Shown: positions 727 to 58,974, counted from the first letter of the stretch. The stretch: DNA of 64,000 bases from Gammaproteobacteria bacterium (GCA_045561235.1 JBJKYB010000002.1:18962-82961), one strand, 5' to 3'. The notes: generated by a model from the sequence alone, not told the origin. Translations and numbers: made by a program.

Positions 727-777
727 AAATGTATTTTGACATAATTATAAGATAAATTAACTGATATTGAGATCATA

Positions 778-1833: not shown

Positions 1834-1835
1834 TC

Positions 1836-6669: not shown

Positions 6670-6670
6670 G

Positions 6671-7132: not shown

Positions 7133-7138
7133 GGATTT

Positions 7139-8132: not shown

Positions 8133-8217
8133 ATAAACTAATTTAAATAATTATTTTTTATTAGTGTACATTATGATAAAACAAAATAAAATAAACAATT
8201 CGAAGAAATAAAAATTT

Positions 8218-9630
8218 ATGAAAGATCATTTAATATTTTTAACTGGAAAGCTAGCGAAGATATCACTTGAGAAAGTTCTATCAGATATTAGCTCCAAAAA
8301 TAAATTCACTTATGAAGTTATGGATATAGGTGTTAATGTTGCTGCTTTGGCAACAATAAATATTATTATTAAAAAAATAAATTTATCAGATGTCACAAAA
8401 GCAACAAAAATTATTATCCCGGGTAGATGCAGAGGTGAAATAAAAGATCTAGAAGCTCATTTTAAGAAAAAATTCATTAGAGGTCCAGAAGAACTAAAAG
8501 ACATTCCAAGCTTTTTAGGTTTACAAGGAAAAGATCTTGATCTAAGTAAATATGATACAAAAATAATTGGAGAAATTACCGAGGCTCCAAATATGTCTAT
8601 TGATGAGATTATTATTCAGGCAAATATTTATAAAGCTGATGGCGCAGATATTATCGATATTGGGTGTTTACCAAGTACAAAGTTTCCACATTTGACCGAA
8701 ACAGTTCAGGAATTAAAAAAACAAAAATTTATGGTTAGTATAGACTCTCTTGATGAAAAAAATTTAATCACAGGAGCTAAAGCTGGTGCAGATTTTTTAC
8801 TAAGCCTTCAAGAAAAATCTATCTGGATAATGGATGAAGTAAATTCTTTACCTGTGATTATTCCAGACTTTCCAAAAGAAGAAAAAAGATTTTACAAGTT
8901 AATTGAAAAATTATTAAAAAATGATAAAGAATTTATTGCTGATTCAATCCTAGAGCCAATAAATTTTGGTTTTACTGATTCCATAGTAAGGTATCATAGA
9001 TTTAGAAAAGAATTTCCGAATGTAGAAATAATGATGGGTATTGGAAATTTAACTGAGCTAACACATGCAGATACAGCTGGAATGAATGCTCTCCTTTTTG
9101 GTATTGCTTCAGAGCTGGAAATTAATTATGCATTATGCACACAGGTAAGTGAACATTGTAATAGGGCCATAATAGAAGGAAATTTTGCTAGAAGAATTAT
9201 GCGTTCCACGAAAACTTATAGTATGCCTCCAAAGGATATTTCTAATAAACTGCTTAGCCTACATGAAAGAAAGCCATTTCCATATTCAACTGAAGAACTT
9301 AAAGAAATGTGGAGTAATGTAAAAGATAAAAATTATAGGATTTATGTAAATCAGGATGGTATACATGTTTTTAATAACAAAAATTTCTATACAGAAAAGG
9401 ATGCTGCAGAGTTTTATCAATATCTTGATATAAAAAATGATGACGGACATGCATATTACCTAGGTATGGAATTAGCAAGAGCTGAAATAGCATTTCAGCT
9501 TGGCAAAAGATACGATCAAGACGAAATACTAAAATGGGGCTGTTCTGTAGAAATATCAGATGATGATATAATGAAATTTAAAACTGCAGGCCACACTATG
9601 AGAAAATTAAAAAAAGAAAAAATGGATTAA
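8218..9630 (+). CDS. dihydropteroate-synthase-like pterin-binding protein, probably tetrahydromethanopterin biosynthesis (MJ0301-type)
   Basis: 470 aa. The central region carries the pterin-binding/DHPS signature (GADIIDIG..PST...) flanked by extra N- and C-terminal domains, as in archaeal/methylotroph H4MPT-linked DHPS-like proteins. It is adjacent to an MfnB-like gene. Confidence 0.55.
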   Translation: MKDHLIFLTGKLAKISLEKVLSDISSKNKFTYEVMDIGVNVAALATINIIIKKINLSDVTKATKIIIPGRCRGEIKDLEAHFKKKFIRGPEELKDIPSFLGLQGKDLDLSKYDTKIIGEITEAPNMSIDEIIIQANIYKADGADIIDIGCLPSTKFPHLTETVQELKKQKFMVSIDSLDEKNLITGAKAGADFLLSLQEKSIWIMDEVNSLPVIIPDFPKEEKRFYKLIEKLLKNDKEFIADSILEPINFGFTDSIVRYHRFRKEFPNVEIMMGIGNLTELTHADTAGMNALLFGIASELEINYALCTQVSEHCNRAIIEGNFARRIMRSTKTYSMPPKDISNKLLSLHERKPFPYSTEELKEMWSNVKDKNYRIYVNQDGIHVFNNKNFYTEKDAAEFYQYLDIKNDDGHAYYLGMELARAEIAFQLGKRYDQDEILKWGCSVEISDDDIMKFKTAGHTMRKLKKEKMD

Positions 9631-9633
9631 ATC

Positions 9634-10203
9634 ATGACCTATGTCAGAGAGACTATAGTTACCACTAAAAATATTGATAACTCTATAAAAGTATCACCAC
9701 TTGGAATTTATATTGAAAATAGTATATTGAAAATAAAACCTTTCAAACCATCAATTTCTCTTGAAAATATCTTAAGAAATAAATCAGGTGTGATAAACTA
9801 TATAGATGATGTAAGAATATTTGCATCATGTATTACAAAAAAAAGTATTAATATTGACTTTGAAAAAGTTAACTTTATTGATTGCTCAAGAATTAATGGT
9901 GCTATATCTCATACAGAATTTGTAGTCGAACATATTGAAGATGATGATAAAAGGCCAACTATAACATGCAAACCTGTTAATGAAGAGGTTCATAAAATAT
10001 TTTATGGGCTAAATAGAGCAAAATCAGCAGTTTTAGAGCTTTGTATTCTCGCATCTAGATTAGGCATAATTGAGGATAAAAAAATTCAAGATGAAATTGA
10101 ATATTTAAAGATCGCAATAGACAAAACAGCTGGTAAAAATGAGCTCGAAGCTTGGACTTGGTTAAATAATTATATAAATACATACAGAGAAAAAATAAAA
10201 TAA
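9634..10203 (+). CDS. hypothetical protein, possibly DUF447-like small protein associated with H4MPT/MFR cofactor gene clusters
   Basis: 189 aa, starting 4 bp after the DHPS-like gene and sharing an ATGA-type junction with the MfnB-like gene. I recognise no strong motif; the assignment is by context and size only. Confidence 0.3.
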   Translation: MTYVRETIVTTKNIDNSIKVSPLGIYIENSILKIKPFKPSISLENILRNKSGVINYIDDVRIFASCITKKSINIDFEKVNFIDCSRINGAISHTEFVVEHIEDDDKRPTITCKPVNEEVHKIFYGLNRAKSAVLELCILASRLGIIEDKKIQDEIEYLKIAIDKTAGKNELEAWTWLNNYINTYREKIK

Positions 10204-10895
10204 TGTTAAAAATACTTGCTAGTATTCAAAATATATCAGAAGCGAAAATTTTAATAAATTCAGATATTGATATTATAGATCTTAAGGATCCATCAAAAGG
10301 CGCTTTGGGTAAATTAAATATTAATGATATTATTAATATAATAAATTTTATTGATAAAAAAAAACTTACAAGTTCTACTATTGGTGATTTACCAAATGAC
10401 AAGAAATTAATTTCTAAAAGTGTAGATGAGTTAAGTATTCTTAATATTGATTTTATTAAAATTGGAGTCTATGAAAGAAGTTATATTAATACAATAGCTG
10501 AAGTTAATTCATGTAAGAAACTTATAGCAGTTTTTTTTGCAGATCTATTCTTGCCTAAAGAAAAAGATTTATTATTCTTAAAAGAATCTGGCTTTTCTGG
10601 TGTAATGATAGATACTTCTAATAAGAAATTAGGAAATCTCTTCGATCATGCGTCTTTCTCTGAAATAAATAGTTTCATATCAAATGCAAAAAAACTTAAT
10701 TTATTGACTGGAATTGCAGGCTCAATTAACGAATCGCATATAAATCAAATTTCAAAAATTAATCCAAACTATATGGGTTTTAGAGGAGCTCTTTGTGAAA
10801 ATAAATTAATTAGAAATTCAACTATATCTGCCAAGAATGTTAAAAATATTATTCATCAAGTTAAAATTTCAAGAGAAATTTCTATGAGCGCTTGA
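10203..10895 (+). CDS. mfnB: MfnB-like (5-formylfuran-3-yl)methyl phosphate synthase family protein (methanofuran/methylofuran biosynthesis)
   Basis: 230 aa. The N-terminus MLKILASIQNISEAKILINSDIDIIDLKDPSKGALGK matches the MJ1099/MfnB family signature (...ADIIDVKNP.EGSLGA). The size also fits. Confidence 0.6.
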   Translation: MLKILASIQNISEAKILINSDIDIIDLKDPSKGALGKLNINDIINIINFIDKKKLTSSTIGDLPNDKKLISKSVDELSILNIDFIKIGVYERSYINTIAEVNSCKKLIAVFFADLFLPKEKDLLFLKESGFSGVMIDTSNKKLGNLFDHASFSEINSFISNAKKLNLLTGIAGSINESHINQISKINPNYMGFRGALCENKLIRNSTISAKNVKNIIHQVKISREISMSA

Positions 10896-12366: not shown

Positions 12367-12378
12367 TAGTTAAACCTG

Positions 12379-13185: not shown

Positions 13186-13188
13186 AAT

Positions 13189-14585: not shown

Positions 14586-14592
14586 ATATTAG

Positions 14593-16949: not shown

Positions 16950-16974
16950 TTAAAATTTAAATTTTAATACATTA

Positions 16975-17415: not shown

Positions 17416-17529
17416 TCAAAATCTCCTATAATTTATTATACATTATTCATATATTTGAAATTAATACTATACCTTTTAATTTAGTAGATATATTCTAGTT
17501 AGTTGGTCTTACAATAATATCATATGTAA

Positions 17530-48239: not shown

Positions 48240-49430
48240 TTATTCAATAATTTTTGAAACAACTCCAGCACCAACTGTCCTTCCACCTTCACGTATTGCG
48301 AATTTTAGTCCTTGCTCCATTGCCACTGGCGCAATTAACTCAACAGTCATACTAACATTATCTCCAGGCATTACCATTTCTGTTCCAGAGGGAAGTGTTG
48401 CTGCACCTGTGACATCAGTTGTTCTAAAATAAAATTGAGGTCTATATCCATTAAAAAATGGAGTATGTCTTCCACCTTCATCCTTCGATAAAATATAAAC
48501 TTCACACTCATATTTTGTATGAGGTTTAATAGATCCTGGTTTACATAAAACTTGTCCTCTTTCTACTTCTTCTCTTTTTGTTCCTCTAAGAAGCACACCA
48601 ACATTGTCTCCGGCTTCACCTTGGTCAAGAAGCTTTCTAAACATCTCAACTCCAGTACATACAGATTTTTGTGTATCTTTAATTCCGCATATTTCAATTT
48701 CATCGTTTACGTTAATTATGCCTCTTTCGACTCTTCCTGTAACAACCGTACCCCTTCCTGAAATAGAAAAAACATCTTCAACTGGCATTAAGAAGTCACC
48801 GTCAGTAGCTCTCTCTGGCTGTGGAAAAAAGTCATCCATAGCTGCAACTATTTTTTCGATTGATGGTGCGCCAATATCAGATGTATCTCCTTCAAGTGCT
48901 TTCAATGCAGAACCACTTACAAAAGGAATATTATCACCATCGAACTCATAAGATGTTAATAATTCTCTAATTTCCATTTCTACTAACTCAGTTAATTCAG
49001 CGTCATCAACTTGATCAGCTTTGTTTAAATAAACAACAATATTTGGGACCCCAACTTGACGAGCTAAAAGAATATGCTCTTTTGTTTGAGGCATTGCTCC
49101 ATCCGCAGCACTTACCACTAAGATTGCTCCATCCATTTGCGCAGCACCCGTAATCATATTTTTTACGTAGTCAGCGTGTCCTGGGCAATCAACATGTGCG
49201 TAATGACGATTATCAGATTCGTATTCAACATGAGCAGTCGCTATAGTAATACCTCTTTCTCTTTCTTCAGGAGCATTATCAATATCACCATAATCCTTAA
49301 ATTCACCACCCATTTTTTCTGCCATAACTTTTGTAATAGCAGCAGTTAATGTAGTCTTTCCATGGTCAACATGACCAATTGTTCCCACATTCATATGTGG
49401 TTTATTTCTTTCAAATTTTGCTTTTGACAT
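48240..49430 (-). CDS. tuf: elongation factor Tu
   Basis: 396 aa; [21 protein letters not shown]; the only tuf copy in the window. Confidence 0.98.
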
Positions 49431-49467
49431 CTCTATCGCCCTCCGCGGCCTATAGTATTTTTATTCA

Positions 49468-49543
<76 letters not shown>

Positions 49544-49595
49544 GTGATTGTATACTGTTTTTAACAGGATTGCTCTAAATTTTTGCTAATTTTAT

Positions 49596-49669
<74 letters not shown>

Positions 49670-49780
49670 ATTAAAAAATTAGCTTAAAAATCACACAAAA
49701 CCCTAATAAAACAGCAAATTAAACCCAAATATCTCATAATTTTAATATTTTAACAGACATATTAAAATTATAGTAATTAA

Positions 49781-49865
49781 TGGTGGAGGGGGGAGGATTC
49801 GAACCTCCGAAGGCATAGCCAGCAGATTTACAGTCTGCCCTCGTTGACCGCTTGAGTACCCCTCC
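49781..49865 (-). tRNA. tyrU: tRNA-Tyr (anticodon GUA)
   Basis: 85 nt with long variable arm, anticodon loop CUGUAAA, 3' CCA encoded. The ORF 49742..49942 is an artefact overlapping it. Confidence 0.9.
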
Positions 49866-50007
49866 GTCAAGGCAAGAATTTTGAAGTACAGGTTGATAGT
49901 AGTCAACAAAAATATTGCTAAAACTTTTAAAATATCAATCAATTGTGTTTAAGCACTCTTGAAAAGCTAGTTTTGGAATTATGTATTAATATGCTAGGAT
50001 AATTTGT

Positions 50008-50406
50008 ATGAGCGATAATATGTTTACTAATGCTTCAAAATATTTCGATGTAGTTGAGAAAATAATACTGGTTATATTGTTATTTGCGACACTTACAGCA
50101 ATAGGTCAGGAAATCTCAAAAGTTATAGCTCTAGGCAAAGTAAATCTTGCTGACATTCTATTATTGTTTATTTTTCTTGAAGTCATTGGGATGATTAAAG
50201 AATATTACGTAACAAATAGAATAGCAATTTCACATCCAATCTTTATTGCAATTACAGCTTTAGCACGATTAATTATTTTACAACGAAAAGATTTTGATCC
50301 AGTAATCTTAATATATGAATCAGGTGCTATTTTAATACTTGCTTTAGCAATACTCGCTTTAAGGGCTAGAAAAAACGCTTTCTTTAGACCAGATAGACCA
50401 GATTAA
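50008..50406 (+). CDS. psiE: PsiE-family inner-membrane protein (phosphate-starvation-inducible protein E-like)
   Basis: 132 aa, 4 TM. Colinear similarity to E. coli PsiE (ADVLF../ADILLLF..; [34 protein letters not shown] vs HPIFIAITALARLIILQRKDFDPVILIYESGAILIL). Confidence 0.7.
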   Translation: MSDNMFTNASKYFDVVEKIILVILLFATLTAIGQEISKVIALGKVNLADILLLFIFLEVIGMIKEYYVTNRIAISHPIFIAITALARLIILQRKDFDPVILIYESGAILILALAILALRARKNAFFRPDRPD

Positions 50407-50445
50407 AAAGATATTGATTTTTTTCTAAAAAAAATAATTTAAAAG

Positions 50446-50919
50446 TTAATAATATCTATTTGGTAATGAGGAGTGGTGCATAACGATTTTCAAATCACCA
50501 TTTGACAGTCTTTTATAGACCCAGCTTTTATCTACTTTTACAATATCGCCGTTCTTGTTACTTAAAGTCACCCATCCCATCCATATTGCAATATCATTTT
50601 CTATAAAGATATCTGAAGTTTTGGAGTCAAATTTACTCCACGAGTTAATTCCAAAGCCATTATCCATTGGATATTTTGAATTATTTCCAACGAAATAAGA
50701 TAGAGCTCCCTCCAAACTCGAGCGAAATGTTTGACTACTCCCACTCATGGTCGGTTTAAATAAAATTGGACCGAGTTCAAAAGCATATAATTCCTGTAAA
50801 ATTTTCTTTGCAATTATAGTAGCTTCTTCAATACCTTTTTCATCATAAGTCTTAGAAATTAAAATTAAGCCATCGCCCCAAGCATTGCGTGCTTTATTCA
50901 TATCTTTTTTATTAATCAT
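50446..50919 (-). CDS. hypothetical protein, possibly NTF2-like (SnoaL/DUF4440-type) fold
   Basis: 157 aa soluble protein ending in a ...HHSS-like motif; no catalytic motif recognised. It is co-oriented 96 bp downstream of fprA. Confidence 0.3.
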   Translation of the reverse strand: MINKKDMNKARNAWGDGLILISKTYDEKGIEEATIIAKKILQELYAFELGPILFKPTMSGSSQTFRSSLEGALSYFVGNNSKYPMDNGFGINSWSKFDSKTSDIFIENDIAIWMGWVTLSNKNGDIVKVDKSWVYKRLSNGDLKIVMHHSSLPNRYY

Positions 50920-51015
50920 TATGCAATTACTCTTCTATTATTTTGTAGCTTTGCTTAGCTATATTAAATCTGTGAGACATTTTCATAAAAAGTTTTTGCA
51001 TGTTTTGAGATATTT

Positions 51016-52437
51016 TTAAGTTAGTAGACCAAGCATTTCTTCAGTATATGTAAACTTCTCTCTTGGCTTACCTTTTGGTTTTCCATTTTCAACTTCATGT
51101 TTATCAATAACTTCCCATTCAATAAAATTGATGTATCTTACTTTTTTTGCATTAAGAATTTCGTGTATTTTTTTACTACCAAGCTTTTCTTTTTTATCAT
51201 CTAATTTTTCTAAATCTGTCATAAGTTCTTCAATAGTTTCATTCGCGCAGGCTTTGTTCGTTCCAATAATTCCACTTGGGCCCCTTTTGATCCATCCAGC
51301 TGTATAAAGTTGTGGAACGACAACCTTAGTTTCATGATCTTCGGTAACCCTTCCTTTTTCATTTGGAATAACGCCCCAAGCATCATGAAAAGGTACTCCT
51401 TCTAAAGCTACTCCTCTATAACCAATACTTCTAAATAAAACGCCCGCCTTTAGTTCTTCAAATTCGCCAGTACCTCTTGCCGACTGTTTAAATGGCTCGC
51501 CTGATAGAGCGTTCTTTTCAAAAACAACTGTTTCTAACTTTTTTTTACCTTTTAACTCTACAGGACTTCTCAAAAATTGTATGTGACATTTACGAGGTTT
51601 CACATATGGTTTTGTCCATGGAAAACTTCTTGCCTTATGAGGACTTTTAGGCTCAGCATAACTTGCAAACAATTCGTATATTTTTTTTGCTGATCTACCT
51701 TTTCTATCAGCTAGTTCCTCTTCACTAGATTTATTTAAAATTGCTTCATCAGGATCAACAAAAGTATCACATTCTTGTAACTCACCAAATTCTTTCAGTT
51801 CTTTCGAAGTCATTGCCCCTTGTGCGGGACCTCTTCTTCCAACAATAAATATATTCTTTACTTTACTTGTTTCTAAAACATCAAGCGCATGTTGTGAAAT
51901 GTCAGTATATTTTAATTCATCAACTGTCTTTGAAAGTATTCTGGCAACATCAGCAGCAACATTACCTTGACCAATAATTACAGCATTTTCATGAGATAGA
52001 TCGAATTCCCTATCTCTATATTCTGGATGTCCGTTATACCATGCAACAAATTCCGTAGCTGTATGACTTCCTTTTAAATCCTCACCAGGTATGCCAAGTT
52101 TTCTATCAGTTTCCGCGCCCATAGTTATAATGACAGCATGGTGAGTTTCTTTTAGAGCATCTACAGTTATATCTTTACCAACACTTACATTTCCAAAGTA
52201 ATTAAATTCTTCGGGTTCTGCCATTACTGCAAATTTCTCAATACTTTTTTTAATTAAAGCATGATCAGGTGCAACTCCGGTTCTCACTAGCCCATAGGGC
52301 GCGCATAACTTTTCAAGTAAATTGACTTCTACTTTTAATTCCGAATTAATTAAAGCATCTGCCGCATAAAATCCGCTTGGGCCAGCACCAACAATTGCAA
52401 CTTTCAAGGGATTATCTGAACTTCCTAATTTGCTCAT
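51016..52437 (-). CDS. fprA: FprA/adrenodoxin-reductase-type NADPH:ferredoxin oxidoreductase (glutamate synthase small-subunit-like FAD/NAD(P) fold)
   Basis: 473 aa. The N-terminal FAD dinucleotide motif VAIVGAGPSGFYAA and a second NADP Rossmann motif (VIIGQGNVAADVARIL) give the architecture of Mycobacterium FprA / adrenodoxin reductase. It starts 21 bp after fdxA. Confidence 0.8.
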   Translation of the reverse strand: MSKLGSSDNPLKVAIVGAGPSGFYAADALINSELKVEVNLLEKLCAPYGLVRTGVAPDHALIKKSIEKFAVMAEPEEFNYFGNVSVGKDITVDALKETHHAVIITMGAETDRKLGIPGEDLKGSHTATEFVAWYNGHPEYRDREFDLSHENAVIIGQGNVAADVARILSKTVDELKYTDISQHALDVLETSKVKNIFIVGRRGPAQGAMTSKELKEFGELQECDTFVDPDEAILNKSSEEELADRKGRSAKKIYELFASYAEPKSPHKARSFPWTKPYVKPRKCHIQFLRSPVELKGKKKLETVVFEKNALSGEPFKQSARGTGEFEELKAGVLFRSIGYRGVALEGVPFHDAWGVIPNEKGRVTEDHETKVVVPQLYTAGWIKRGPSGIIGTNKACANETIEELMTDLEKLDDKKEKLGSKKIHEILNAKKVRYINFIEWEVIDKHEVENGKPKGKPREKFTYTEEMLGLLT

Positions 52438-52458
52438 TTTTTCACTCTTTATAAAAAA

Positions 52459-52764
52459 TTATAAACCTAATGCTTCTCTTTTGTCTTCTGCACCTTCAAG
52501 AGGTTCAAGAGTTTCAGTAATGTTTGGAGTTTCTTGCGATCTTTCTTCATTTATATCTACCCAATGTTCTTGACCATCAGGAAGATCATCCTCTTCAAAG
52601 ATTGCTTCTACTGGACATTCCGGAACACACGCGCTGCAATCAATACATACATCTGGATTTATATATAACATTTCGTCATCAACGTGAAATGCTTCAACAG
52701 GACAAACCGAAACACAATCGGTAAATCTACATCCTCTACAATTATCTGTCACTACTGTTGTCAT
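52459..52764 (-). CDS. fdxA: 7Fe ferredoxin ([3Fe-4S][4Fe-4S], Azotobacter FdI type)
   Basis: 101 aa; MTTVVTDNCRGCRFTDCVSVCPVEAFH...CIDCSACVPECPVEAIF, near-colinear with A. vinelandii FdI. Confidence 0.93.
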   Translation of the reverse strand: MTTVVTDNCRGCRFTDCVSVCPVEAFHVDDEMLYINPDVCIDCSACVPECPVEAIFEEDDLPDGQEHWVDINEERSQETPNITETLEPLEGAEDKREALGL

Positions 52765-52802
52765 AAAATAAATACTCCTAAAAACTTTACTTAATTATAT
52801 AC

Positions 52803-53609
52803 CTACGCAGAATAAACTAAAAGTTCTCCGCGATTCATTTCAATAGCATCTCCACTCCACCTATGGAATGAACCATTGATAATTTTATCCTCAATATTAA
52901 TTTTTGTATTTTCTTTTAAATACTTAAAGAAAATTTTTAAATATGTTGGGTTATATAAACAATCATATGAAAAAGTTGGTAATATTTCTAAATTGTCTAT
53001 ACATATAATAGAACCCCTTTTCATTCCTGCTCCAGTTCTGATACCCATTTCACCAAATATTAAAATGGTACCTGATACCATATTAACGCCCGCAAAATCT
53101 CCACAATTTCCACCAACTACCATAGTAGCGCCTGCCATAGCATGACCTAATTCATTTTTGACATTACCCTCAATAATAATTTCTCCCCCGGAAACACCTT
53201 TTGACGCACCTCTATATGCACTTGCAACGCAATGTCCAGCGTTTCCAGAAATATGAATTCTTCCCCCTGACATTTCTGGTGCAATCCAATCACCAGCATT
53301 ACCATTTACGTTTATAGATCCACCAGACATTGCTGAGCCTAAATGGGCACCCACATCTCCTTCGATATGCATCTCCCCTTCAGACATATTTGCTCCCAAA
53401 TATTTTATTCGGTTCATGTCTCCTTCGACTTGCAATAAATCTAATTTACTCTTTGAGACAGAAAAGAAATCAGCTATATTCACTTCTCTATTACCATGAA
53501 AAATTTTAGTTTTTTCAATTTCTTTTGCCTTTAAATTATTAATAACTCCAGGAGTTATACTCTCAGCTTCTAAAGGAACATCTGGTTTTGTGTGTAATTT
53601 TAATTTCAT
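52803..53609 (-). CDS. fhcC: formylmethanofuran dehydrogenase subunit C-like protein (FwdC/FhcC; GltB C-terminal GXGXG beta-helix domain)
   Basis: 268 aa of repeated G.GNAG.....M.GG.I.I.G motifs, typical of FwdC and glutamate synthase alpha-subunit domain 4. Confidence 0.85.
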   Translation of the reverse strand: MKLKLHTKPDVPLEAESITPGVINNLKAKEIEKTKIFHGNREVNIADFFSVSKSKLDLLQVEGDMNRIKYLGANMSEGEMHIEGDVGAHLGSAMSGGSINVNGNAGDWIAPEMSGGRIHISGNAGHCVASAYRGASKGVSGGEIIIEGNVKNELGHAMAGATMVVGGNCGDFAGVNMVSGTILIFGEMGIRTGAGMKRGSIICIDNLEILPTFSYDCLYNPTYLKIFFKYLKENTKINIEDKIINGSFHRWSGDAIEMNRGELLVYSA

Positions 53610-53623
53610 CGTACTAGTTTGAT

Positions 53624-54538
53624 TTAATCTACTAAATCCTTTAAATAAAATTTATATTTACCAAGTTTTCCGCCAAAATTTCCAGCAGTTATTTGAATAA
53701 CTCCTTCTTTGGCTGCAGCATGCATTCCTACTTTCATAGCTTTTGCAACTGCATTCTCATCTGCACCGTCTACGACAATTTCGTAACAAGTATGAACGCT
53801 TTCAGGCACAGCCGAATCTTTAACTACTCCTTTTAAAGTAGGACAATAAATATGGTTTGTCGAGGCAACTAGATCTTTGTATTTTGACCCAACTTTACTA
53901 CCACTTCTAACTACTCCTTTAGGAAATGGCATTATAACATTTTCAACTCTCTTCATAACTTTTACAGCATCGTAACAAGCATCTAGACATTCTTTTACAT
54001 TATCACCAAGAATATAAAAATTTCCACCGCCAACAGATTCTCTTACACCAAAGTTTTCGTGTATTATAAATTCTCCGTCAAAAACTGGAATTCTCCAGTA
54101 TCTTTTATTTTGAATTTTTTTCCCTATTTGATGACCATCACCAAAGTATCTTAATGCTCCACCAACATTTACAGTGTCTTCTGAATCGTAACCACTAAAA
54201 CATGCCGTTGTTGGACATGTCATTACACATTGTCCTATTCTTTCAATTAATCTTTTACCAAGACTCGCTTTATCCATTGTAAAAACTAAAATACTATAAC
54301 CTGGTCTGCCATCAGGGGTTTCCTCGGGAGTAAGCTTCATATCGATACCTGCTTCGCATTTGCAACCTATTACAGAAGTTGCCATTCCAGTCATGGCTCT
54401 TGCAGCACCTTCAGCCCAATAATCATTTTCTGCAGTGATAATTACTTTTGCCGACCACATTGAAAAAGCTTCTGCATATGTATCAACAATTTCTGTATTA
54501 TTAATTTTCATAAATGCTGTTCTTTTTCCTTGTTTCAA
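53624..54538 (-). CDS. fhcD: formylmethanofuran--tetrahydromethanopterin N-formyltransferase (Ftr/FhcD)
   Basis: The N-terminus ...MKINNTEIVDTYAEAFSMWSAKVIITAENDYWAEGAARAMTGMATSVIGCKCEAGID is colinear with archaeal Ftr (MEINGVEIEDTFAEAF...). The likely true start is the Met at about 54511 (295 aa), which avoids a 38-bp overlap with fhcA. Confidence 0.85.
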   Translation of the reverse strand: MKQGKRTAFMKINNTEIVDTYAEAFSMWSAKVIITAENDYWAEGAARAMTGMATSVIGCKCEAGIDMKLTPEETPDGRPGYSILVFTMDKASLGKRLIERIGQCVMTCPTTACFSGYDSEDTVNVGGALRYFGDGHQIGKKIQNKRYWRIPVFDGEFIIHENFGVRESVGGGNFYILGDNVKECLDACYDAVKVMKRVENVIMPFPKGVVRSGSKVGSKYKDLVASTNHIYCPTLKGVVKDSAVPESVHTCYEIVVDGADENAVAKAMKVGMHAAAKEGVIQITAGNFGGKLGKYKFYLKDLVD

Positions 54539-56168
54539 TTACTTTACCTGTGCCATGTAAATATTCATCCTGAACTGCATAATTACTATAGGAAACAGAA
54601 TAAAAATCATCAAAGAAAGGTTTTATAACTTTTTCTATTTCTCTATCAAAATCAGGTGCCACTCGTAAAACTTTTTTGTCAGTATAGTCACTGACAAATT
54701 CATGATCAGCGATCAACAATTGCCCAGCCTTCATAACGTATCTTGGAGCATTAAACATTTCTTCTTTATCCTCAAGCATGTCATATATTGTTATGTCTGC
54801 GTCCGCACCAACACCTAGATGACCTTTATCTTTTAATCCTAAACACTTTGCAGGGCCTGCCCTTGTAATGATACAAATTTCATTTAATGTATATTCCCTT
54901 TTCAACTCTCCCAAAATCGTACTATTCATTGCTTTTTGATTAACACTTTTCATTGCTACTTTTCTAAATTCATAATCCATTAATAATTTAATTACCAATG
55001 GATAATTTGCAAAAGAACCGCCATTTGGATGATCGGTAGACAAAACTATTCTCCAAGGATCTTTTGATAACAAGAATATTTCTAAACCAATAGCCCATTG
55101 AAGTGCATGAGTGTAAATCATACCCTGGTAATCGAAAGGTAAAATTCCACAGCCACTCTCACATTCAGTATCAGCATTCACCCATTTTTCTTTTTTATAA
55201 CCTCTGAGTAAATATGTTAAAGGCGCGTCAGCAGTCATAAACATTGCTTTACCAAACATTACTTGCCCAACATCGCAGGTTATATTTTGGTGGTCGTTTA
55301 CATAATCAGTAATTTCTTTTGAGGCTGATTTTGGTGGCTTGCCAAGTTCACCCGCGTAACTATTGAATTGAATATGAGCAACATGCAGTCTTCTATCCCC
55401 AGCAGTCTTCATACTTTCTAAGGTTGTATCAAAGTTTCCACTATGACCAAGATTATTACAATGAATATGCGGAGGATGAGGTAATCCTAGCTCATGTACA
55501 GCATCAATAAATGCTTCGATCACTTTTCTTGGTGCAATATCTGTCGCCTTACTATCTTCGTCGATATCTTTTACATTCAGATTTTTGTGACCTTTCCAGG
55601 GTTCATCTCCTCCTGGATTTACTAATTTCACAGTGTACGCTTTTGTTGCATTTAACCACCATGCAACTGCCTCTTTGAACTCAGCAAAACGCCCCTCTGC
55701 AATTAAACTTTGTAAAAAAAGATTATTTCCAAGTAAAACATAAAAACCGTTGTCAATGATTGGCGTGTCGTACATTTCTTCCAGCGCATGCCTTGCAGTC
55801 AATGGCGGGACAGCTGCTTCCATTGCAGTTGTGTATCCTAAAGTTGCATATCTATATCCAGTTGCGAAAGTTGAAGGAACAATTCCTCCAGTACCAGATT
55901 GTGTGTATGGGGTTTTAAAGTGCGGATCTAATCTATGATCCTCGGGCATTAATTTTCTTGCTAGATTAACTTTTGGTCCAGTAATATGACAATGAATATC
56001 TACACCGCCAGGCATAACTGCCATTCCTTTTGCATCGATAACCTTTGCCGCTTTGGAAACCTTTGAGACAATTTTTCCATCCTTTACGAGGATGTCACAA
56101 ACTTTTCCTTCGATTTCATTTGTAGGATCAAAAACTATGCCGTTTATGATACGAAATTCATTACTCAT
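54501..56168 (-). CDS. fhcA: formylmethanofuran dehydrogenase subunit A-like metal-dependent amidohydrolase (FwdA/FhcA)
   Basis: 555 aa amidohydrolase-superfamily protein (GGVDIHCH metal-binding motif near the N-terminus) with FwdA length and operon context. Confidence 0.85.
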   Translation of the reverse strand: MSNEFRIINGIVFDPTNEIEGKVCDILVKDGKIVSKVSKAAKVIDAKGMAVMPGGVDIHCHITGPKVNLARKLMPEDHRLDPHFKTPYTQSGTGGIVPSTFATGYRYATLGYTTAMEAAVPPLTARHALEEMYDTPIIDNGFYVLLGNNLFLQSLIAEGRFAEFKEAVAWWLNATKAYTVKLVNPGGDEPWKGHKNLNVKDIDEDSKATDIAPRKVIEAFIDAVHELGLPHPPHIHCNNLGHSGNFDTTLESMKTAGDRRLHVAHIQFNSYAGELGKPPKSASKEITDYVNDHQNITCDVGQVMFGKAMFMTADAPLTYLLRGYKKEKWVNADTECESGCGILPFDYQGMIYTHALQWAIGLEIFLLSKDPWRIVLSTDHPNGGSFANYPLVIKLLMDYEFRKVAMKSVNQKAMNSTILGELKREYTLNEICIITRAGPAKCLGLKDKGHLGVGADADITIYDMLEDKEEMFNAPRYVMKAGQLLIADHEFVSDYTDKKVLRVAPDFDREIEKVIKPFFDDFYSVSYSNYAVQDEYLHGTGKVIETRKKNSIYEN

Positions 56169-56220
56169 AATTAATTCAAACCTTTTTTAATTTTTATATT
56201 TATTAATTAGCTCAATGTAC

Positions 56221-57591
56221 TTACATATATTTTTTAGTTGCATAAGGTCTATTTGCTTTTTTAGACAACTCATTAACTTTTTTTCTAAGTTTTGTTAGCA
56301 CCTCTAGATCACTAGGAAATGGTGAATCAAATGCAGGTCTTAAACTAATTGGAACATCATCCATTCTATAAACTGTTCCACCGGTGTTAATTCCATAAGT
56401 ACTGGTTTGAATTGAAATATGCGCAGCTTCACTTGTCGGTGTGTTTTTTGTATCTATTGATATTAATTTACATTTGTCACTTGTAATATGATCAATTGCA
56501 GGCTTTGGAAAATTCGCAACTGGATCACTTGCAATTATTAAAGCTGCATCAGCTTCTTTTCTTGTTAAAGTATCAACAGTTGTAAATTCACCAGGATTAA
56601 ACCTTGGGTGCCCTCTGCTAAAATTAACTCCAAACGGATACCCAGTTTGCCAAGAAACAACGTTATCGGCACCTGTTACGTTACCATGTCCTCTTGCAGG
56701 TTTTGCTACAAAATGCGTAAATTCATTTAGATCTGTTGCTAAGGCCATTAATGCTCCAGAGTTAAAGTGTCTTCCTCTAGTCATTGTTAATCCCATTCCA
56801 AAAAATATAACTCCATAAGTACAGTTTTTCATTTTATTAAAAAGATCTTCAGCAACTTCTTTTTCGATACCACAAATTTCTTTACAATTATCTGGAATAG
56901 GAACACCTTTACATGCAGCCCTGAGTATCCATAAAAACTCAAAATCTTTTCCAGGTTTTACTTGTAAAAATATATCAGCTACTCCTGCTGTTTTTGTATG
57001 TCTCACATCACAAATTACAACTGTACGATCATCTTTTCCATTTGGAGTAAACATACCTTCTGGTGTAACAGCATATCTTGCGAAATGTCTTGGGTGCGCT
57101 TCAGCTGGATTACCACCCCAATACATTACAAAGTCAGCTCTATTTTTTACTTCTCCTAAAGTCATGCTGGGTTCACCAACACCTTGGAAAGCCATGCCGG
57201 ATGGACCGTGACATACAGAAGTTGTTGTATCAATAGTTCCACCACAATCGTCCATGATTGGAGCACATTGTCTTTGAGCTTCACATATTGTGTCACTCAT
57301 ACCATATAATATTGGAAACTTTGCATCCATTAACACTTTAGCCGCTTCATCAATTGCATCATCTAAAGGAACTTCTTTTCCATCTATTCTTGCTATTGGC
57401 TTATCTTCTATAACATGATTTAAAAACCAAGCCTTTCCAAGTATGCAAGCATCTTTAGCTTTTGTGATAACTTTTTTGTCCATATCAACAGTCAAAGTAA
57501 TATCATCACAACAGCATCCACAAAAAGTACAAGTTGCGTTCTCTACAATTTTCTCATTTACAATTTTATTATCTTTACTTACTGCACTCAT
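56221..57591 (-). CDS. fhcB: formylmethanofuran dehydrogenase subunit B-like molybdopterin-oxidoreductase-fold protein (FwdB/FhcB)
   Basis: 456 aa. An N-terminal Cys cluster (CTFCGCCCDD...C) resembles the MopB [4Fe-4S] motif. The internal TTTSVCHGPSG resembles the Cys/SeCys active-site motif (VUHGPS of FDH-H). Confidence 0.8.
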   Translation of the reverse strand: MSAVSKDNKIVNEKIVENATCTFCGCCCDDITLTVDMDKKVITKAKDACILGKAWFLNHVIEDKPIARIDGKEVPLDDAIDEAAKVLMDAKFPILYGMSDTICEAQRQCAPIMDDCGGTIDTTTSVCHGPSGMAFQGVGEPSMTLGEVKNRADFVMYWGGNPAEAHPRHFARYAVTPEGMFTPNGKDDRTVVICDVRHTKTAGVADIFLQVKPGKDFEFLWILRAACKGVPIPDNCKEICGIEKEVAEDLFNKMKNCTYGVIFFGMGLTMTRGRHFNSGALMALATDLNEFTHFVAKPARGHGNVTGADNVVSWQTGYPFGVNFSRGHPRFNPGEFTTVDTLTRKEADAALIIASDPVANFPKPAIDHITSDKCKLISIDTKNTPTSEAAHISIQTSTYGINTGGTVYRMDDVPISLRPAFDSPFPSDLEVLTKLRKKVNELSKKANRPYATKKYM

Positions 57592-57620
57592 AATATCTCC
57601 TTGATTGTCTCCTTAACTCA

Positions 57621-58013
57621 TTAAGCAACTTCAGTTTTAGGCGGTAAAGCAGTTTTCTTTTTTACGCCTTTTTTGACAAACTCTATATCTATTGTCATTC
57701 CTTTTGAGGCCGGCATGCCCGATGCACATGTTTCACCATCAAACAAACAACTTGATGGCGGGCCATATGGAATGAATGCATAACCTACAGGAATTTTTCC
57801 TTCTCTTAGAACTTTTAGTTGAACTTCAGTTTCACCGATGTGGTTACTAATTTTGACTATGTCAGCTGTTTCTAGTCCTAGCTCAGCTGCATCTTCGAAA
57901 CTAATTTCAAGCGTAGTTGTGACTCTAATGTACTCTTCCTTAAGCTTACCCTTATTCAGCCCTACTCCTTGTTTGGCGGAGCGGCCTGGTATAAGTATTA
58001 GTTGTCCTTTCAT
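57621..58013 (-). CDS. formylmethanofuran dehydrogenase subunit D-like protein (molybdopterin dinucleotide-binding / MopB C-terminal beta-barrel domain)
   Basis: 130 aa; colinear with archaeal FwdD (G.......G....V.I......G...V...V.......F.P.GP........D..T...GMP.SKG......E). It is the first gene of the operon, 29 bp upstream of fhcB. Confidence 0.65.
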   Translation of the reverse strand: MKGQLILIPGRSAKQGVGLNKGKLKEEYIRVTTTLEISFEDAAELGLETADIVKISNHIGETEVQLKVLREGKIPVGYAFIPYGPPSSCLFDGETCASGMPASKGMTIDIEFVKKGVKKKTALPPKTEVA

Positions 58014-58155
58014 TGCATCATTAAGTTTTTCCTAAGCCTCTTTTAAATACTCAAATATTGTTTACTACCTATATTAACGTATGCTTATTAAGATAACCTA
58101 TTATGGGTAATAAAACAACTATTTTATATTACTATAGTAGTATTTAAGCAGTATT

Positions 58156-58231
58156 TGGAGCCGCCTGTCAGAATCGAACTGACTACCTGCTGATTACAAA
58201 ACAACTGCTCTACCAAATGAGCTAAGGCGGC
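58156..58231 (-). tRNA. tRNA-Thr (anticodon UGU)
   Basis: 76 nt hand-folded cloverleaf with perfect 7-bp acceptor stem (GCCGCCT/AGGCGGC), D-arm GCTC-ATTTGGTA-GAGC, anticodon loop UUUGUAA, T-arm GTCAG-TTCGATT-CTGAC, CCA encoded. Confidence 0.85.
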
Positions 58232-58236
58232 AATTT

Positions 58237-58974
58237 TTACGCTTCAAATACTAAAATTCCTTCAAAAAGAAGAGATTCTACATGTATTATTGGGTAGTTA
58301 CAATTATCCAAAACGCTTTTAGAATTTCCTCCAGTTACATAAATTTCTGGAGTGACACCCCTTCCTTTAATCATCTTATCCAAAGTATTATTTATTGAAT
58401 GATATGCAGAAATTGTAGAACCATTTTCAATGCTAGATCTTGTGTTAGATGAAAAAATTCCTTCAATTAATTCTTCATTTGAAAAATCAAAATCTAGCAT
58501 TTCAAAAAATACGCTATCAATGAGTTTTTTACTAGGGAGAATAATACCTCCTATATGATTTTTGTTGAAGTCCAAATAGTCAATTGTTGTTGCTGTTCCT
58601 GCATCAATAACAATAATATCTTTATTTGTTTTTACAGATGCTCCTACTAAGTTTAAAGCTCTATCTACTCCTAAATTATTTAAATTATTTTTATATGCTA
58701 AGGAAATATATTGATTACAATCTTCCGAATTAATAAATTTAATAATTTCATTAATATCACTGGGCAGCTCGTTCATAATAAGTTGTAAATCAGCTTCCTT
58801 AAGAACATTACAACAAACTATTTTCTCGCAATTAAATTTTTTAACAATGGTGGCTAAATTATTCAGCTCAGATATATTTTCATAATTATTTTTTTGAACC
58901 GAAATAATGTTATTTTCTTTAATAAGAGCTAATTTGTAATTAGTATGTCCAAAATCAATTGCGCAAAAATTCAT
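58237..58974 (-). CDS. coaX: type III pantothenate kinase (Bvg accessory factor family)
   Basis: 245 aa; N-terminal AIDFGHTNYKLAL and internal VIDAGTATTID motifs of CoaX; downstream of birA as in many beta-proteobacteria. Confidence 0.85.
   Translation of the reverse strand: MNFCAIDFGHTNYKLALIKENNIISVQKNNYENISELNNLATIVKKFNCEKIVCCNVLKEADLQLIMNELPSDINEIIKFINSEDCNQYISLAYKNNLNNLGVDRALNLVGASVKTNKDIIVIDAGTATTIDYLDFNKNHIGGIILPSKKLIDSVFFEMLDFDFSNEELIEGIFSSNTRSSIENGSTISAYHSINNTLDKMIKGRGVTPEIYVTGGNSKSVLDNCNYPIIHVESLLFEGILVFEA

What the first reader, a model, noticed from the sequence alone, without database searches (positions are those of the whole stretch)
51016..58013. Seven-gene Fwd/Fhc-like operon with co-operonic ferredoxin and NADPH:ferredoxin reductase
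Seven minus-strand genes are packed with 21-52 bp spacers: fwdD-like, fwdB/fhcB-like, fwdA/fhcA-like, ftr/fhcD, fwdC/fhcC, a 7Fe ferredoxin (fdxA) and an FprA-type NADPH:ferredoxin oxidoreductase. The classical methylotroph formyltransferase/hydrolase complex (FhcABCD) is redox-inactive, releases formate, and to my knowledge has no FwdD subunit or dedicated ferredoxin. Here the A, B, C and Ftr homologues are joined by a D-like subunit and a ferredoxin/reductase pair. Archaeal Fwd uses a ferredoxin-type electron carrier in the same role. The architecture therefore suggests a genuine ferredoxin-linked formylmethanofuran dehydrogenase whose electrons are relayed to NADP(H) via FdxA and FprA. That would be a direct formyl-MFR to CO2 route that bypasses free formate and makes NADPH, in a bacterium with a streamlined AT-rich genome. 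I do not recall this operon arrangement being described.
Basis: partly seen in the sequence, partly recalled or inferred. Interest (0 to 1): 0.82.

Follow-up and report, generated by a model that had tools for sequence, protein, structure and literature searches.

The report
Bacterial formyl-methanofuran dehydrogenase wired to NADP
A tiny-genome marine bacterium, and at least 80 related species, carry an archaeal-type, metal-cofactor enzyme that probably burns formaldehyde-derived carbon straight to CO2 and passes the electrons through its own ferredoxin and reductase to make NADPH; I found no published description of this arrangement.

Summary
The seven genes are real and in the stated order: fwdD, fwdB, fwdA, ftr, fwdC, fdxA, fprA. 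They lie on the minus strand at 51016-58013.

The B subunit is a true FwdB. It matches archaeal FwdB over its full length (E=4e-111). It keeps the four Fe-S cysteines, the catalytic Cys-His and the Arg. M. extorquens FhcB has lost all of these.

In 85 related loci these residues are invariant. A second, D-less FhcB-like paralogue sits beside the operon in 35 of those loci and has lost Cys/His/Arg in every case.

FdxA and FprA directly follow fwdC in 60 of 62 loci that are long enough to show it. They stay with the fwd genes through four different rearrangements. All seven genes are under strong purifying selection.

The C subunit has the Fhc-type helix-loop-helix that docks Ftr. The complex therefore looks like a hybrid: Fwd redox chemistry on an Fhc-style Ftr-bearing architecture.

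Most likely reaction: formyl-H4MPT is oxidised to CO2 without free formate, and the electrons reach NADP+ via FdxA and FprA.

Not tested: Mo/W cofactor biosynthesis genes, the metal used, and any enzyme activity. I found no published description. A 2016 review states that fwdD is absent from Proteobacteria.

The parts
57621..58013 (-). fwdD: the cap ('fourth domain') of the Mo/W-pterin site, 130 aa
   Evidence: PF01568 Molydop_binding. NF042908 FwdD at 55.7 bits, below its cut-off. PDB FwdD chains 2ki8, 8rja_D and 5t5i_D at E=6e-14 to 4e-7. Found just upstream of fwdB in 80 of 81 loci.
56221..57591 (-). fwdB: catalytic Mo/W-bisPGD and [4Fe-4S] subunit, 456 aa
   Evidence: TIGR03129 at 490 bits. 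Matches 5t5i_B over its full length at E=4e-111, against 6.5e-11 over a partial stretch for FhcB 6s6y_B. C21, C24, C28, C49, C127, H128 and R300 are invariant in 85 of 85 relatives.
54501..56168 (-). fwdA: binuclear-metal amidohydrolase that interconverts formyl-MFR and formate, 555 aa
   Evidence: TIGR03121 at 685 bits. Closer to archaeal FwdA (462-468 bits) than to FhcA (339 bits). Ligands H59, H61, K181, H236, H265 and D379 are invariant.
53624..54511 (-). ftr (fhcD-like): formyl-MFR:H4MPT formyltransferase, 295 aa from the ATG at 54511. The ORF extends to a TTG at 54538.
   Evidence: TIGR03119 at 412 bits; PF01913 plus PF02741. The 295-aa gene call on identical contigs overlaps fwdA by 11 nt.
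52803..53609 (-). fwdC/fhcC: beta-helix scaffold with an Fhc-type C-terminal helix-loop-helix, the presumed Ftr dock
   Evidence: TIGR03122 at 251 bits. Aligns end to end with FhcC, but with a gap of about 15 aa against FwdC. AF2 model at pLDDT 95 has helices at 222-234 and 241-244. Best TM-score 0.89 and rmsd 2.5 A are to 6s6y_C.
52459..52764 (-). fdxA: Azotobacter FdI-type 7Fe ferredoxin, the presumed acceptor from the FwdB [4Fe-4S] cluster
   Evidence: PDB FdI chains at E=2e-29. NF045490 at 117 bits, below its 135-bit cut-off. All 8 Cys are invariant in 72 relatives. dN/dS is 0.005-0.024.
51016..52437 (-). fprA: adrenodoxin-reductase/FprA-type NADP(H):ferredoxin oxidoreductase, 473 aa
   Evidence: 1lqt FprA at E=1e-98 over the full length; bovine adrenodoxin reductase 1cjc at 6e-89. 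The GAGPSG (FAD) and GRRGP (NADP) motifs are invariant in 67 relatives.
50446..50919 (-). Metal-independent carbonic anhydrase-like gene, 96 bp downstream on the same strand. Its membership of the unit is uncertain.
   Evidence: NF047901 at 170 bits, below its cut-off. Pfam MICAH on identical contigs. Present only in the nearest relatives L001, L005, L007 and L086-L089. No terminator-like hairpin in the spacer.
58156..58231 (-). tRNA-Thr(TGT): upstream boundary of the inserted block
   Evidence: ARAGORN and Rfam.
49468..49865 (-). tRNA-Tyr, tRNA-Gly and tRNA-Thr(GGT) ahead of tuf: downstream boundary. The operon sits inside a thrU-tyrU-glyT-thrT-tufB-type array.
   Evidence: ARAGORN. tuf and secE-nusG-rplK follow in the relative L081.
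8218..10895 (+). Same pathway, elsewhere in the window: cofactor biosynthesis genes (MptH-like pterin-binding protein, DUF447 protein, and 4-HFC-P synthase MfnB for methanofuran)
   Evidence: TIGR00284 at 184 bits, below its cut-off. NF002576 and NF002573. PF20123, PF14251, PF04289 and PF04476.

Best explanation
The operon most likely encodes one cytoplasmic complex, FwdDBA-Ftr-FwdC, plus its electron outlet.

Proposed steps:
1. Ftr, docked on the Fhc-type C-terminal helix-loop-helix of the C subunit, moves the formyl group from formyl-H4MPT to methanofuran or methylofuran.
2. FwdA, a binuclear-metal amidohydrolase, splits formyl-MFR to formate.
3. The formate is not released as it is in Fhc. 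It is oxidised to CO2 at a Cys-ligated Mo- or W-bis-pterin site in FwdB, capped by FwdD.
4. The two electrons leave through the FwdB [4Fe-4S] cluster to the 7Fe ferredoxin FdxA. FdxA stands in for the archaeal FwdG/FwdF.
5. FprA (FAD) passes them to NADP+.

Net reaction: formyl-H4MPT + NADP+ + H2O -> CO2 + H4MPT + NADPH + H+.

Shown here: subunit identities; conservation of every cofactor ligand; near-universal linkage of the seven genes; embedding in the H4MPT formaldehyde-oxidation island in relatives.

Inferred: the physical complex with Ftr, formate channelling, the ferredoxin docking, the direction of electron flow, and NADP+ as the sink.
For: B subunit. It matches archaeal FwdB over its full length (5t5i_B, E=4e-111) but M. 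extorquens FhcB only partly (6.5e-11). The Fe-S cysteines, Cys127-His128 and Arg300 are invariant in 85 of 85 D-linked B proteins. The tandem paralogue B' has lost Cys/His/Arg in 35 of 35 loci. This is an internal control showing what relaxed selection does to a scaffold-only B subunit.

D subunit. FwdD is present in 80 of 81 loci. Hemmann 2019 calls this domain critical for capping and coordinating the pterin.

Other ligands. FwdA metal ligands, all FdxA cysteines, and the FprA FAD and NADP motifs are invariant.

Linkage of fdxA-fprA. They directly follow fwdC in 60 of 62 loci. In L077 they sit directly upstream of fwdD. Where the Fhc-type set is separated from the Fwd set (L032, L052, L056, L076), they stay with the Fwd set. 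In the window's lineage all seven genes moved together into a tRNA-tuf array, away from the H4MPT island.

Selection. dN/dS is 0.005-0.10 for all seven genes, against 0.18-0.26 for the flanking birA and coaX.

C subunit. It has the Fhc-type helix-loop-helix.

Pathway context. Relatives have fae, mch and mtdB next to the operon. Twelve relatives have a formaldehyde-producing methanethiol-oxidase cluster just upstream.

Thermodynamics. CO2/formyl-MFR is at about -0.53 V (PMC11656701). NADP+/NADPH is at -0.32 V (textbook value). The oxidative direction is therefore downhill by about 40 kJ/mol.

Precedent. An archaeal Fwd is wired to an F420 reductase for CO2 release (PMC11493965).
Against: - No Mo/W cofactor biosynthesis or transport genes were seen. 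Only about 74 kb of this genome could be read, so this is untested rather than negative.
- No Moco riboswitch was found in the window at Rfam gathering scores.
- Electron transfer from FwdB to FdxA to FprA rests on gene linkage only.
- Archaeal Fwd enzymes are oxygen-sensitive, and this organism lives in oxic surface seawater (Tara contigs).
- The promoter and terminator scans carry no signal either way.
- The AF2 model of FwdB was poor (pLDDT 67) and gives no structural support.
- FwdD and FdxA score below the NCBIfam equivalog cut-offs.
Confidence: 0.62

Rival explanations
1. The complex is a redox-active Fwd-type enzyme as above, but NADP+ is not the sink. In one version, FdxA is the product: a source of low-potential electrons for other enzymes, with FprA as an overflow valve. 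In another version, FprA and FdxA run from NADPH towards the enzyme, to reductively activate or repair the Mo/W centre in an oxic cell.
For: FprA-type reductases are best known running from NADPH to ferredoxin, as in M. tuberculosis FprA (PDB 1lqt match; PMC6208970 listed). The low-potential cluster of Azotobacter-type 7Fe ferredoxins is not easily matched to NADP(H) (own knowledge). Gene linkage cannot show direction.
Against: A stoichiometric oxidation needs a stoichiometric electron sink. A ~1.1-Mb genome is unlikely to keep a dedicated reductase only for repair. The reductase is as conserved as the catalytic subunits. Fd-to-NADP+ transfer is thermodynamically favourable with electrons entering at -0.53 V.
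Confidence: 0.22
2. It is a redox-dead Fhc-like formyltransferase/hydrolase that releases formate. In this reading fwdD is a relic, and fdxA-fprA is an unrelated housekeeping pair that happens to lie next door.
For: NCBIfam and Pfam models do not separate Fwd from Fhc subunits. The C subunit and the in-operon ftr are Fhc-like. Fhc is the only characterised bacterial member (PMC6926001).
Against: All seven cofactor-related residues of B are invariant in 85 of 85 loci, while the true Fhc-type paralogue in the same genomes has lost the three active-site residues in 35 of 35. FwdD is retained in 80 of 81 loci. fdxA-fprA adjacency survives four different genome arrangements. dN/dS is very low for D, Fdx and Fpr.
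Confidence: 0.04
3. It runs in the archaeal direction: NADPH, via FprA and FdxA, drives CO2 reduction to formyl-MFR for C1 assimilation.
For: Fwd is reversible. FprA normally oxidises NADPH. A carbonic anhydrase-like gene lies downstream in the nearest relatives.
Against: The reaction is uphill by about 0.21 V, or about 40 kJ/mol (potential from PMC11656701), and no bifurcating or energy-coupling partner is in the operon. The genomic context is formaldehyde oxidation: fae, mtdB, mch and methanethiol oxidase. The carbonic anhydrase is not conserved with the operon.
Confidence: 0.03

Closest known systems
Archaeal tungsten/molybdenum formylmethanofuran dehydrogenase FwdABCDFG (M. wolfei, PDB 5T5I)
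   Same: FwdB is split from FwdD. It has the N-terminal [4Fe-4S] motif and the catalytic Cys-His and Arg. The FwdA amidohydrolase ligands and the FwdC beta-helix are present. Matches are full-length: B at E=4e-111, A at 462 bits, C at 142 bits.
   Different: There is no FwdF polyferredoxin or FwdG; a 7Fe FdxA and an FprA reductase are encoded instead. Ftr is encoded inside the operon. The C subunit has the Fhc-type helix-loop-helix in place of the archaeal beta-hairpin. The host is an aerobic marine bacterium, and the expected direction is oxidative.
Formyltransferase/hydrolase complex FhcABCD of Methylorubrum extorquens (PDB 6S6Y; Hemmann et al. 2019, PMC6926001)
   Same: It is bacterial and sits in the H4MPT formaldehyde-oxidation pathway. 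The gene order B-A-Ftr(D)-C matches. Ftr is co-encoded. The C-terminal helix-loop-helix of the C subunit is present, and the best structural match of the C model is FhcC (TM 0.89).
   Different: FhcB has Ser in place of the catalytic Cys, lacks His and Arg, lacks the Fe-S domain, and has no D subunit; it releases formate. Here all of these features are present and invariant. A separate Fhc-type set lies next to the operon in 35 relatives.
F420-reducing Fwd complex of Candidatus Ethanoperedens thermophilum (PDB 8RJA; Lemaire et al. 2024, PMC11493965)
   Same: It is an Fwd running towards CO2, with its electrons wired to a flavin-dependent reductase and a carrier near -0.34 V rather than to free low-potential ferredoxin. 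That gives a thermodynamic pull. B matches at E=7e-103.
   Different: It is archaeal and anaerobic, and its F420 reductase is bound through an Fe-S bridge. Here the module is a soluble-type 7Fe ferredoxin plus an adrenodoxin-reductase-family NADP(H) enzyme, and coupling is only inferred.
M. tuberculosis FprA with 7Fe ferredoxin FdxA, and A. vinelandii ferredoxin I
   Same: FprA matches 1lqt over its full length at E=1e-98, with the GRRGP NADP motif. FdxA matches FdI at E=2e-29, with all 8 Cys.
   Different: The known pair carries electrons from NADPH to P450s and other acceptors. Here the pair is dedicated to an Fwd operon and is expected to run towards NADP+.

Membership tests
Fwd/Fmd formylmethanofuran dehydrogenase | B subunit with an N-terminal CxxCxxxC...C [4Fe-4S] motif | tested here: met
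   C21, C24, C28 and C49 align with the M. wolfei FwdB motif and are invariant in 85 of 85 relatives.
Fwd/Fmd formylmethanofuran dehydrogenase | Catalytic Cys/Sec-His and Arg at the Mo/W site (M. wolfei Cys118, His119, Arg288) | tested here: met
   SVC127H128GPS and R300GHGNVTG align with the archaeal residues and are invariant in 85 of 85 relatives.
Fwd/Fmd formylmethanofuran dehydrogenase | Separate FwdD subunit (the MopB 'fourth domain') that caps the pterin | tested here: met
   PF01568. PDB FwdD chains at E=6e-14 to 4e-7. Present in 80 of 81 loci. It scores below the NCBIfam FwdD 'exception' cut-off (55.7 against 175 bits).
Fwd/Fmd formylmethanofuran dehydrogenase | FwdA amidohydrolase with binuclear metal ligands, and a FwdC beta-helix | tested here: met
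   TIGR03121 at 685 bits and TIGR03122 at 251 bits. H59, H61, K181, H236, H265 and D379 are invariant.
Fwd/Fmd formylmethanofuran dehydrogenase | FwdF polyferredoxin and/or FwdG 2[4Fe-4S] electron-transfer subunits | tested here: not met
   No such gene is in the operon. FdxA matches FwdG only weakly (E=1.5e-5) and is an Azotobacter FdI-type 7Fe protein.
Fwd/Fmd formylmethanofuran dehydrogenase | Bound Mo- or W-bis-pyranopterin guanine dinucleotide, and formyl-MFR dehydrogenase activity | not testable with these tools
   This needs metal analysis and enzyme assay. Cofactor biosynthesis genes could not be searched outside the roughly 74 kb that could be read.
Fhc formyltransferase/hydrolase complex | B subunit without Mo/W ligands, and no D subunit (scaffold only; formate released) | tested here: not met
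   The ligands and FwdD are present. The true Fhc-type B' of relatives lacks Cys/His/Arg in 35 of 35 loci.
Fhc formyltransferase/hydrolase complex | Ftr (FhcD) encoded in the operon and docked on a C-terminal helix-loop-helix of the C subunit | tested here: met
   ftr lies between A and C in 74 loci. The AF2 model has helices at 222-234 and 241-244. The alignment with FhcC is end to end. TM 0.89 to 6s6y_C. Physical docking itself is not testable here.
Fhc formyltransferase/hydrolase complex | Basic patch on FhcC that anchors polyglutamylated methylofuran as a prosthetic group | not tested
   The residue list is in the supplement of PMC6926001, which was not read. ATP-grasp and RimK-type ligase genes lie in the adjacent island of relatives.
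FprA / adrenodoxin-reductase family NADPH:ferredoxin oxidoreductase | Full-length two-domain fold with an FAD GxGxxG motif and an NADP 2'-phosphate Arg-Arg motif | tested here: met
   1lqt at E=1e-98 over residues 10-469. GAGPSG and GRRGP are invariant in 67 relatives.
7Fe ferredoxin (Azotobacter FdI type, FdxA) | Cysteine pattern for one [3Fe-4S] and one [4Fe-4S] cluster, plus the C-terminal extension (DUF3470) | tested here: met
   FdI chains at E=2e-29 over residues 4-94. PF11953 DUF3470. All 8 Cys are invariant in 72 relatives. NF045490 scores 117 against a 135-bit cut-off.

The most novel reading that the evidence does not exclude
This would be a previously uncharacterised enzyme class: an oxygen-exposed bacterial formyltransferase/formyl-methanofuran dehydrogenase supercomplex. 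It would channel formyl-H4MPT to CO2 with no free formate and reduce NADP+ through a dedicated 7Fe ferredoxin and FprA.

It would also be the living intermediate between archaeal Fwd and bacterial Fhc. In the evolutionary path drawn by Hemmann et al. 2019, Ftr docking has already happened but the dehydrogenase has not been lost.

It is present in at least 80 gammaproteobacterial species, including a ~1.1-Mb-genome plankton lineage found in Tara Oceans contigs. In that lineage it may be the only route from formaldehyde to CO2.
Probability: 0.45. Interest if true: 0.85.

Novelty: new variant of a known kind. Interest (0 to 1): 0.74.

Why it matters
Known formyl-methanofuran dehydrogenases are archaeal and anaerobic. 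The only characterised bacterial relative, Fhc, is redox-dead. A 2024 review of these enzymes lists polyferredoxin, heterodisulfide reductase and F420 reductase as electron modules, and only Fhc for bacteria (PMC11656701). A 2016 review states that fwdD is absent from Proteobacteria (PMC5020050).

If this operon works as proposed, four things follow.
- Aerobic marine bacteria oxidise formaldehyde-derived C1 units to CO2 in one channelled step that yields NADPH. That changes how C1, methanethiol and DMSP-derived carbon and reducing power are budgeted in plankton and sediments.
- The way Fhc evolved from Fwd becomes directly testable, because both forms sit side by side in 35 genomes.
- It offers a candidate Fwd from an oxic habitat, coupled to a pyridine nucleotide. 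That is of interest for CO2/formate biocatalysis.
- Annotation pipelines that use one name for both forms hide a real functional split. That split can be read from three residues and the presence of fwdD.

Tried and rejected
- Promoter and terminator scan of 49400-58400. Promoter-like sites were at chance level (34 found, 34.9 expected) and there was no minus-strand terminator, so it says nothing about the transcription unit. The fprA-CA spacer folds no better than shuffles (z=-1.2).
- Rfam scan of the whole window at gathering scores. It found only five tRNAs and no Moco or other riboswitch.
- AF2 model of FwdB from 43 close homologues. It was poor (pLDDT 67), and lowest in the cofactor loops. 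Foldseek gave TM about 0.47, so I used only the ranking (FwdB E~3e-30, FhcB ~6e-14) and made no structural claim.
- Naming the organism. An RpoB search gave only 'Gammaproteobacteria bacterium'. The nearest public records are filed as 'Thiothrix sp.' MAGs and SAGs, which I do not trust as a genus call.
- Mo/W cofactor genes. None are in the window or in 10 kb beyond its end.
- A ChrA-family transporter follows fprA in six relatives. I considered it as a Mo/W oxyanion importer but left this as a note only.
- Seven literature searches found no description of an FdxA/FprA-linked bacterial Fwd. Adam et al. 2019 (Nat Microbiol), the most relevant phylogenomic paper, is not in the library and was not read.
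- The two loci labelled Planctomycetota (L015) and Gemmatimonadota (L030), at 70-72% identity, are more likely binning errors than wide transfer. I did not pursue them.

Full report
**The observation**

Seven minus-strand ORFs occupy 51016-58013. Profile and structure-database searches identify them as follows.
- FwdD-like: PF01568; PDB FwdD chains down to E=6e-14.
- FwdB: TIGR03129, 490 bits.
- FwdA: TIGR03121, 685 bits.
- Ftr: TIGR03119, 412 bits.
- FwdC: TIGR03122, 251 bits.
- FdxA: an Azotobacter FdI-type 7Fe ferredoxin, E=2e-29.
- FprA: an FprA/adrenodoxin-reductase-type flavoenzyme; M. tuberculosis FprA 1lqt, E=1e-98, full length.

The spacers are 29, 52, 14, 38 and 21 bp. The likely ftr start (ATG at 54511, 295 aa, as called on identical contigs) overlaps fwdA by 11 nt. 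The window is AT-rich, with GC of 0.23-0.38.

**Is the B subunit a dehydrogenase or a scaffold?**

This is the central question. Hemmann et al. 2019 (PMC6926001) list what M. extorquens FhcB has lost relative to M. wolfei FwdB:
- the catalytic Cys118 (a Ser in FhcB), His119 and Arg288;
- the N-terminal [4Fe-4S] domain;
- the FwdD 'fourth domain' that caps the tungstopterin.

The window protein aligns over its full length with archaeal FwdB (5t5i_B, E=4e-111). It aligns with FhcB only over residues 249-430 (E=6.5e-11). It has C21-x2-C24-x3-C28...C49, then SVC127-H128-GPS, then R300-GHGNVTG. A separate FwdD is encoded 29 bp upstream.

The FwdA metal ligands are also intact, and FwdA is closer to archaeal FwdA (462-468 bits) than to FhcA (339 bits).

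**Comparative evidence**

A scan of one genome per species found at least 577 related stretches; the 80 best were kept. Nearly all are gammaproteobacterial MAGs or SAGs. The nearest are 92-98% identical and are filed as 'Thiothrix sp.' or 'Gammaproteobacteria bacterium'.

I mapped the window's proteins onto these loci. The order D-B-A-Ftr-C-Fdx-Fpr appears wherever the contig is long enough.
- FwdD lies just upstream of B in 80 of 81 loci.
- FdxA and FprA lie just downstream of C in 60 of 62 loci.
- One exception, L077, has fdxA-fprA directly upstream of fwdD.
- The other, L054, has the same downstream layout as L077 but its contig ends 370 bp upstream of fwdD.

In 35 loci the seven genes are followed on the same strand by a second set, B'-A'-Ftr'-C', with no D. 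Identities to the window proteins are 23-28% for B', 43-46% for A', 49-54% for Ftr' and 29-39% for C'.

Across 85 D-linked B proteins, all seven key residues are invariant. Across the 35 B' proteins, the catalytic Cys is A/G/S, the His is L/A/M and the Arg is G/A/S. So the same genomes carry both a ligand-complete Fwd-type set and a ligand-less Fhc-type set. That is a natural control: it shows the ligands are kept by selection, not by inertia.

**Are fdxA and fprA part of the unit?**

Adjacency survives four different arrangements.
1. Between the Fwd set and the Fhc set.
2. With the Fwd set when the Fhc-type B' lies about 8 kb away on the other strand (L032, L052, L056, L076).
3. Moved to the front of the operon (L077).
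4. In the window's lineage, all seven genes transplanted together, away from the H4MPT island, into a tRNA-Thr | tRNA-Tyr-Gly-Thr-tuf array.

All eight FdxA cysteines and the FprA FAD (GAGPSG) and NADP (GRRGP) motifs are invariant. Against four relatives (L003, L005, L007, L008), dN/dS is 0.007-0.12 for the seven genes and 0.18-0.26 for the flanking birA and coaX. FdxA is the most constrained. dS is saturated, so these ratios are rough. Independent transcription cannot be excluded from sequence, because the scans were uninformative.

**Pathway context**

In most relatives the operon abuts a divergent island with fae, mch, mtdB and cofactor-biosynthesis genes. In twelve relatives it lies directly downstream of a methanethiol-oxidase-type cluster (SBP56/MtoX, SCO1, MauG-like, peroxiredoxins), which is a formaldehyde source.

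The window has none of fae, mch or mtdB in its 64 kb. It does carry an MptH-like gene, a DUF447 gene and the methanofuran gene mfnB at 8218-10895.

Contigs of this lineage reach 1.10-1.15 Mb. The window's exact FwdB occurs on Tara Oceans contigs. This is therefore a streamlined pelagic bacterium that still pays for this pathway.

**A hybrid architecture**

The C subunit aligns end to end with FhcC (13-265 against 13-262), but with a gap of about 15 residues against archaeal FwdC. The gap falls where FhcC has the helix-loop-helix (residues 216-246) that docks FhcD/Ftr.

An AF2 model at pLDDT 95 shows helices at 222-234 and 241-244. Its best structural match is FhcC (TM 0.89, rmsd 2.5 A), against TM 0.84 and rmsd 3.6 A for FwdC. 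Together with the in-operon ftr, this suggests Ftr is a subunit, as in Fhc.

The complex therefore combines Fwd redox chemistry with Fhc architecture. In the three-step path from Fwd to Fhc proposed by Hemmann et al., this is the state in which Ftr has associated but the dehydrogenase has not been lost.

**Mechanism**

Most likely:
1. Ftr moves the formyl group from H4MPT to methanofuran or methylofuran.
2. FwdA liberates formate.
3. FwdB/D oxidises it to CO2.
4. Electrons pass from the FwdB [4Fe-4S] cluster to FdxA, then to FprA, then to NADP+.

The CO2/formyl-MFR couple lies near -0.53 V (PMC11656701) and NADP+/NADPH at -0.32 V, so the oxidative direction is favoured by about 40 kJ/mol. The reverse direction is implausible without an energy-coupling partner.

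The closest functional precedent is the archaeal Fwd wired to an F420 reductase (PMC11493965).

Steps that are inferred rather than shown: the physical complex, channelling, ferredoxin docking, the NADP+ sink, the metal used and oxygen tolerance.

**Novelty**

Pipelines already label these genes 'formylmethanofuran dehydrogenase subunit B/C', so the genes themselves are not unseen. What I could not find is any description of the following:
- a ligand-complete Fwd with FwdD in Proteobacteria;
- its FdxA/FprA module;
- its coexistence with Fhc.

[quoted passage not shown] A 2023 MopB survey notes bacterial FwdB homologues only as products of gene transfer. The 2024 review of these enzymes lists no such bacterial form. 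I rate it a new variant of a known kind.

**Limits**

- Mo/W cofactor biosynthesis and transport could not be checked.
- The FwdB structure model failed.
- All electron-transfer claims rest on linkage and conservation.

Noticed in passing
window 49468-49865 and 58156-58231 (tRNAs), flanking 50008-58013: The fwd operon, the carbonic-anhydrase-like gene and a psiE-like gene sit between tRNA-Thr(TGT) and tRNA-Tyr/Gly/Thr(GGT)-tuf-tRNA-Trp-secE. They are therefore inserted inside an array that has the E. coli thrU-tyrU-glyT-thrT-tufB layout. In larger-genome relatives the operon lies in the H4MPT island instead.
   Followed up: partly
window 50446-50919 (-): A metal-independent carbonic anhydrase-like gene (NF047901, 170 bits, lacking the first ~50 profile positions; Pfam MICAH on identical contigs) lies 96 bp downstream of fprA on the same strand. 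It is present only in the closest relatives. A link to the CO2 produced by Fwd is possible but unsupported.
   Followed up: partly
window 8218-10895 (+): Three co-oriented genes: an MptH-like pterin-binding protein (DUF6513 plus PterinBD), a DUF447 protein, and 4-HFC-P synthase (MfnB). These are H4MPT and methanofuran cofactor biosynthesis genes, about 40 kb from the operon.
   Followed up: partly
L032 2338-8504; also L042, L052, L056, L059, L065, L066, L069, L072, L074, L075, L076: A methanethiol-oxidase-type cluster (SBP56/MtoX, SCO1/SenC, MauG-like dihaem peroxidase, two peroxiredoxins, pterin-4a-carbinolamine dehydratase) lies directly upstream of fwdD on the same strand in twelve relatives. 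This links a formaldehyde-producing organosulfur step to the operon.
   Followed up: partly
L032 16741-18090; also L052, L056, L066, L075, L076: A ChrA-family (chromate/oxyanion) transporter gene follows fprA in six relatives. Whether it imports molybdate or tungstate is unknown.
   Followed up: no
L018 16632-17882 and the B' genes of 34 other loci: The Fhc-type B' paralogue keeps the N-terminal CxxCxxxC...C motif in 35 of 35 loci (the fourth Cys in 32 of 35), although it has lost the Mo/W-site residues. M. extorquens FhcB has lost the whole Fe-S domain. The gammaproteobacterial FhcB is therefore a less reduced form and may still bind a cluster.
   Followed up: partly
L015 and L030: Two loci with the same seven-gene operon at 70-72% FwdB identity are filed under Planctomycetota and Gemmatimonadota MAGs. 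This is more likely a mis-binned gammaproteobacterial contig than wide horizontal transfer.
   Followed up: no
window 1-20000 versus 20000-58000: GC is about 0.23-0.30 in the first 20 kb and after 58 kb. It is 0.32-0.38 across the ribosomal-protein/rpoBC block and the fwd operon, with strongly negative GC skew throughout the minus-strand block.
   Followed up: no
L086 1-3893 (beyond the window's high end): ppk2, ppk1, ppx and a low-molecular-weight phosphatase lie just past the window end. Together with the psiE-like gene at window 50008-50406, this points to phosphate-stress genes around the locus.
   Followed up: no
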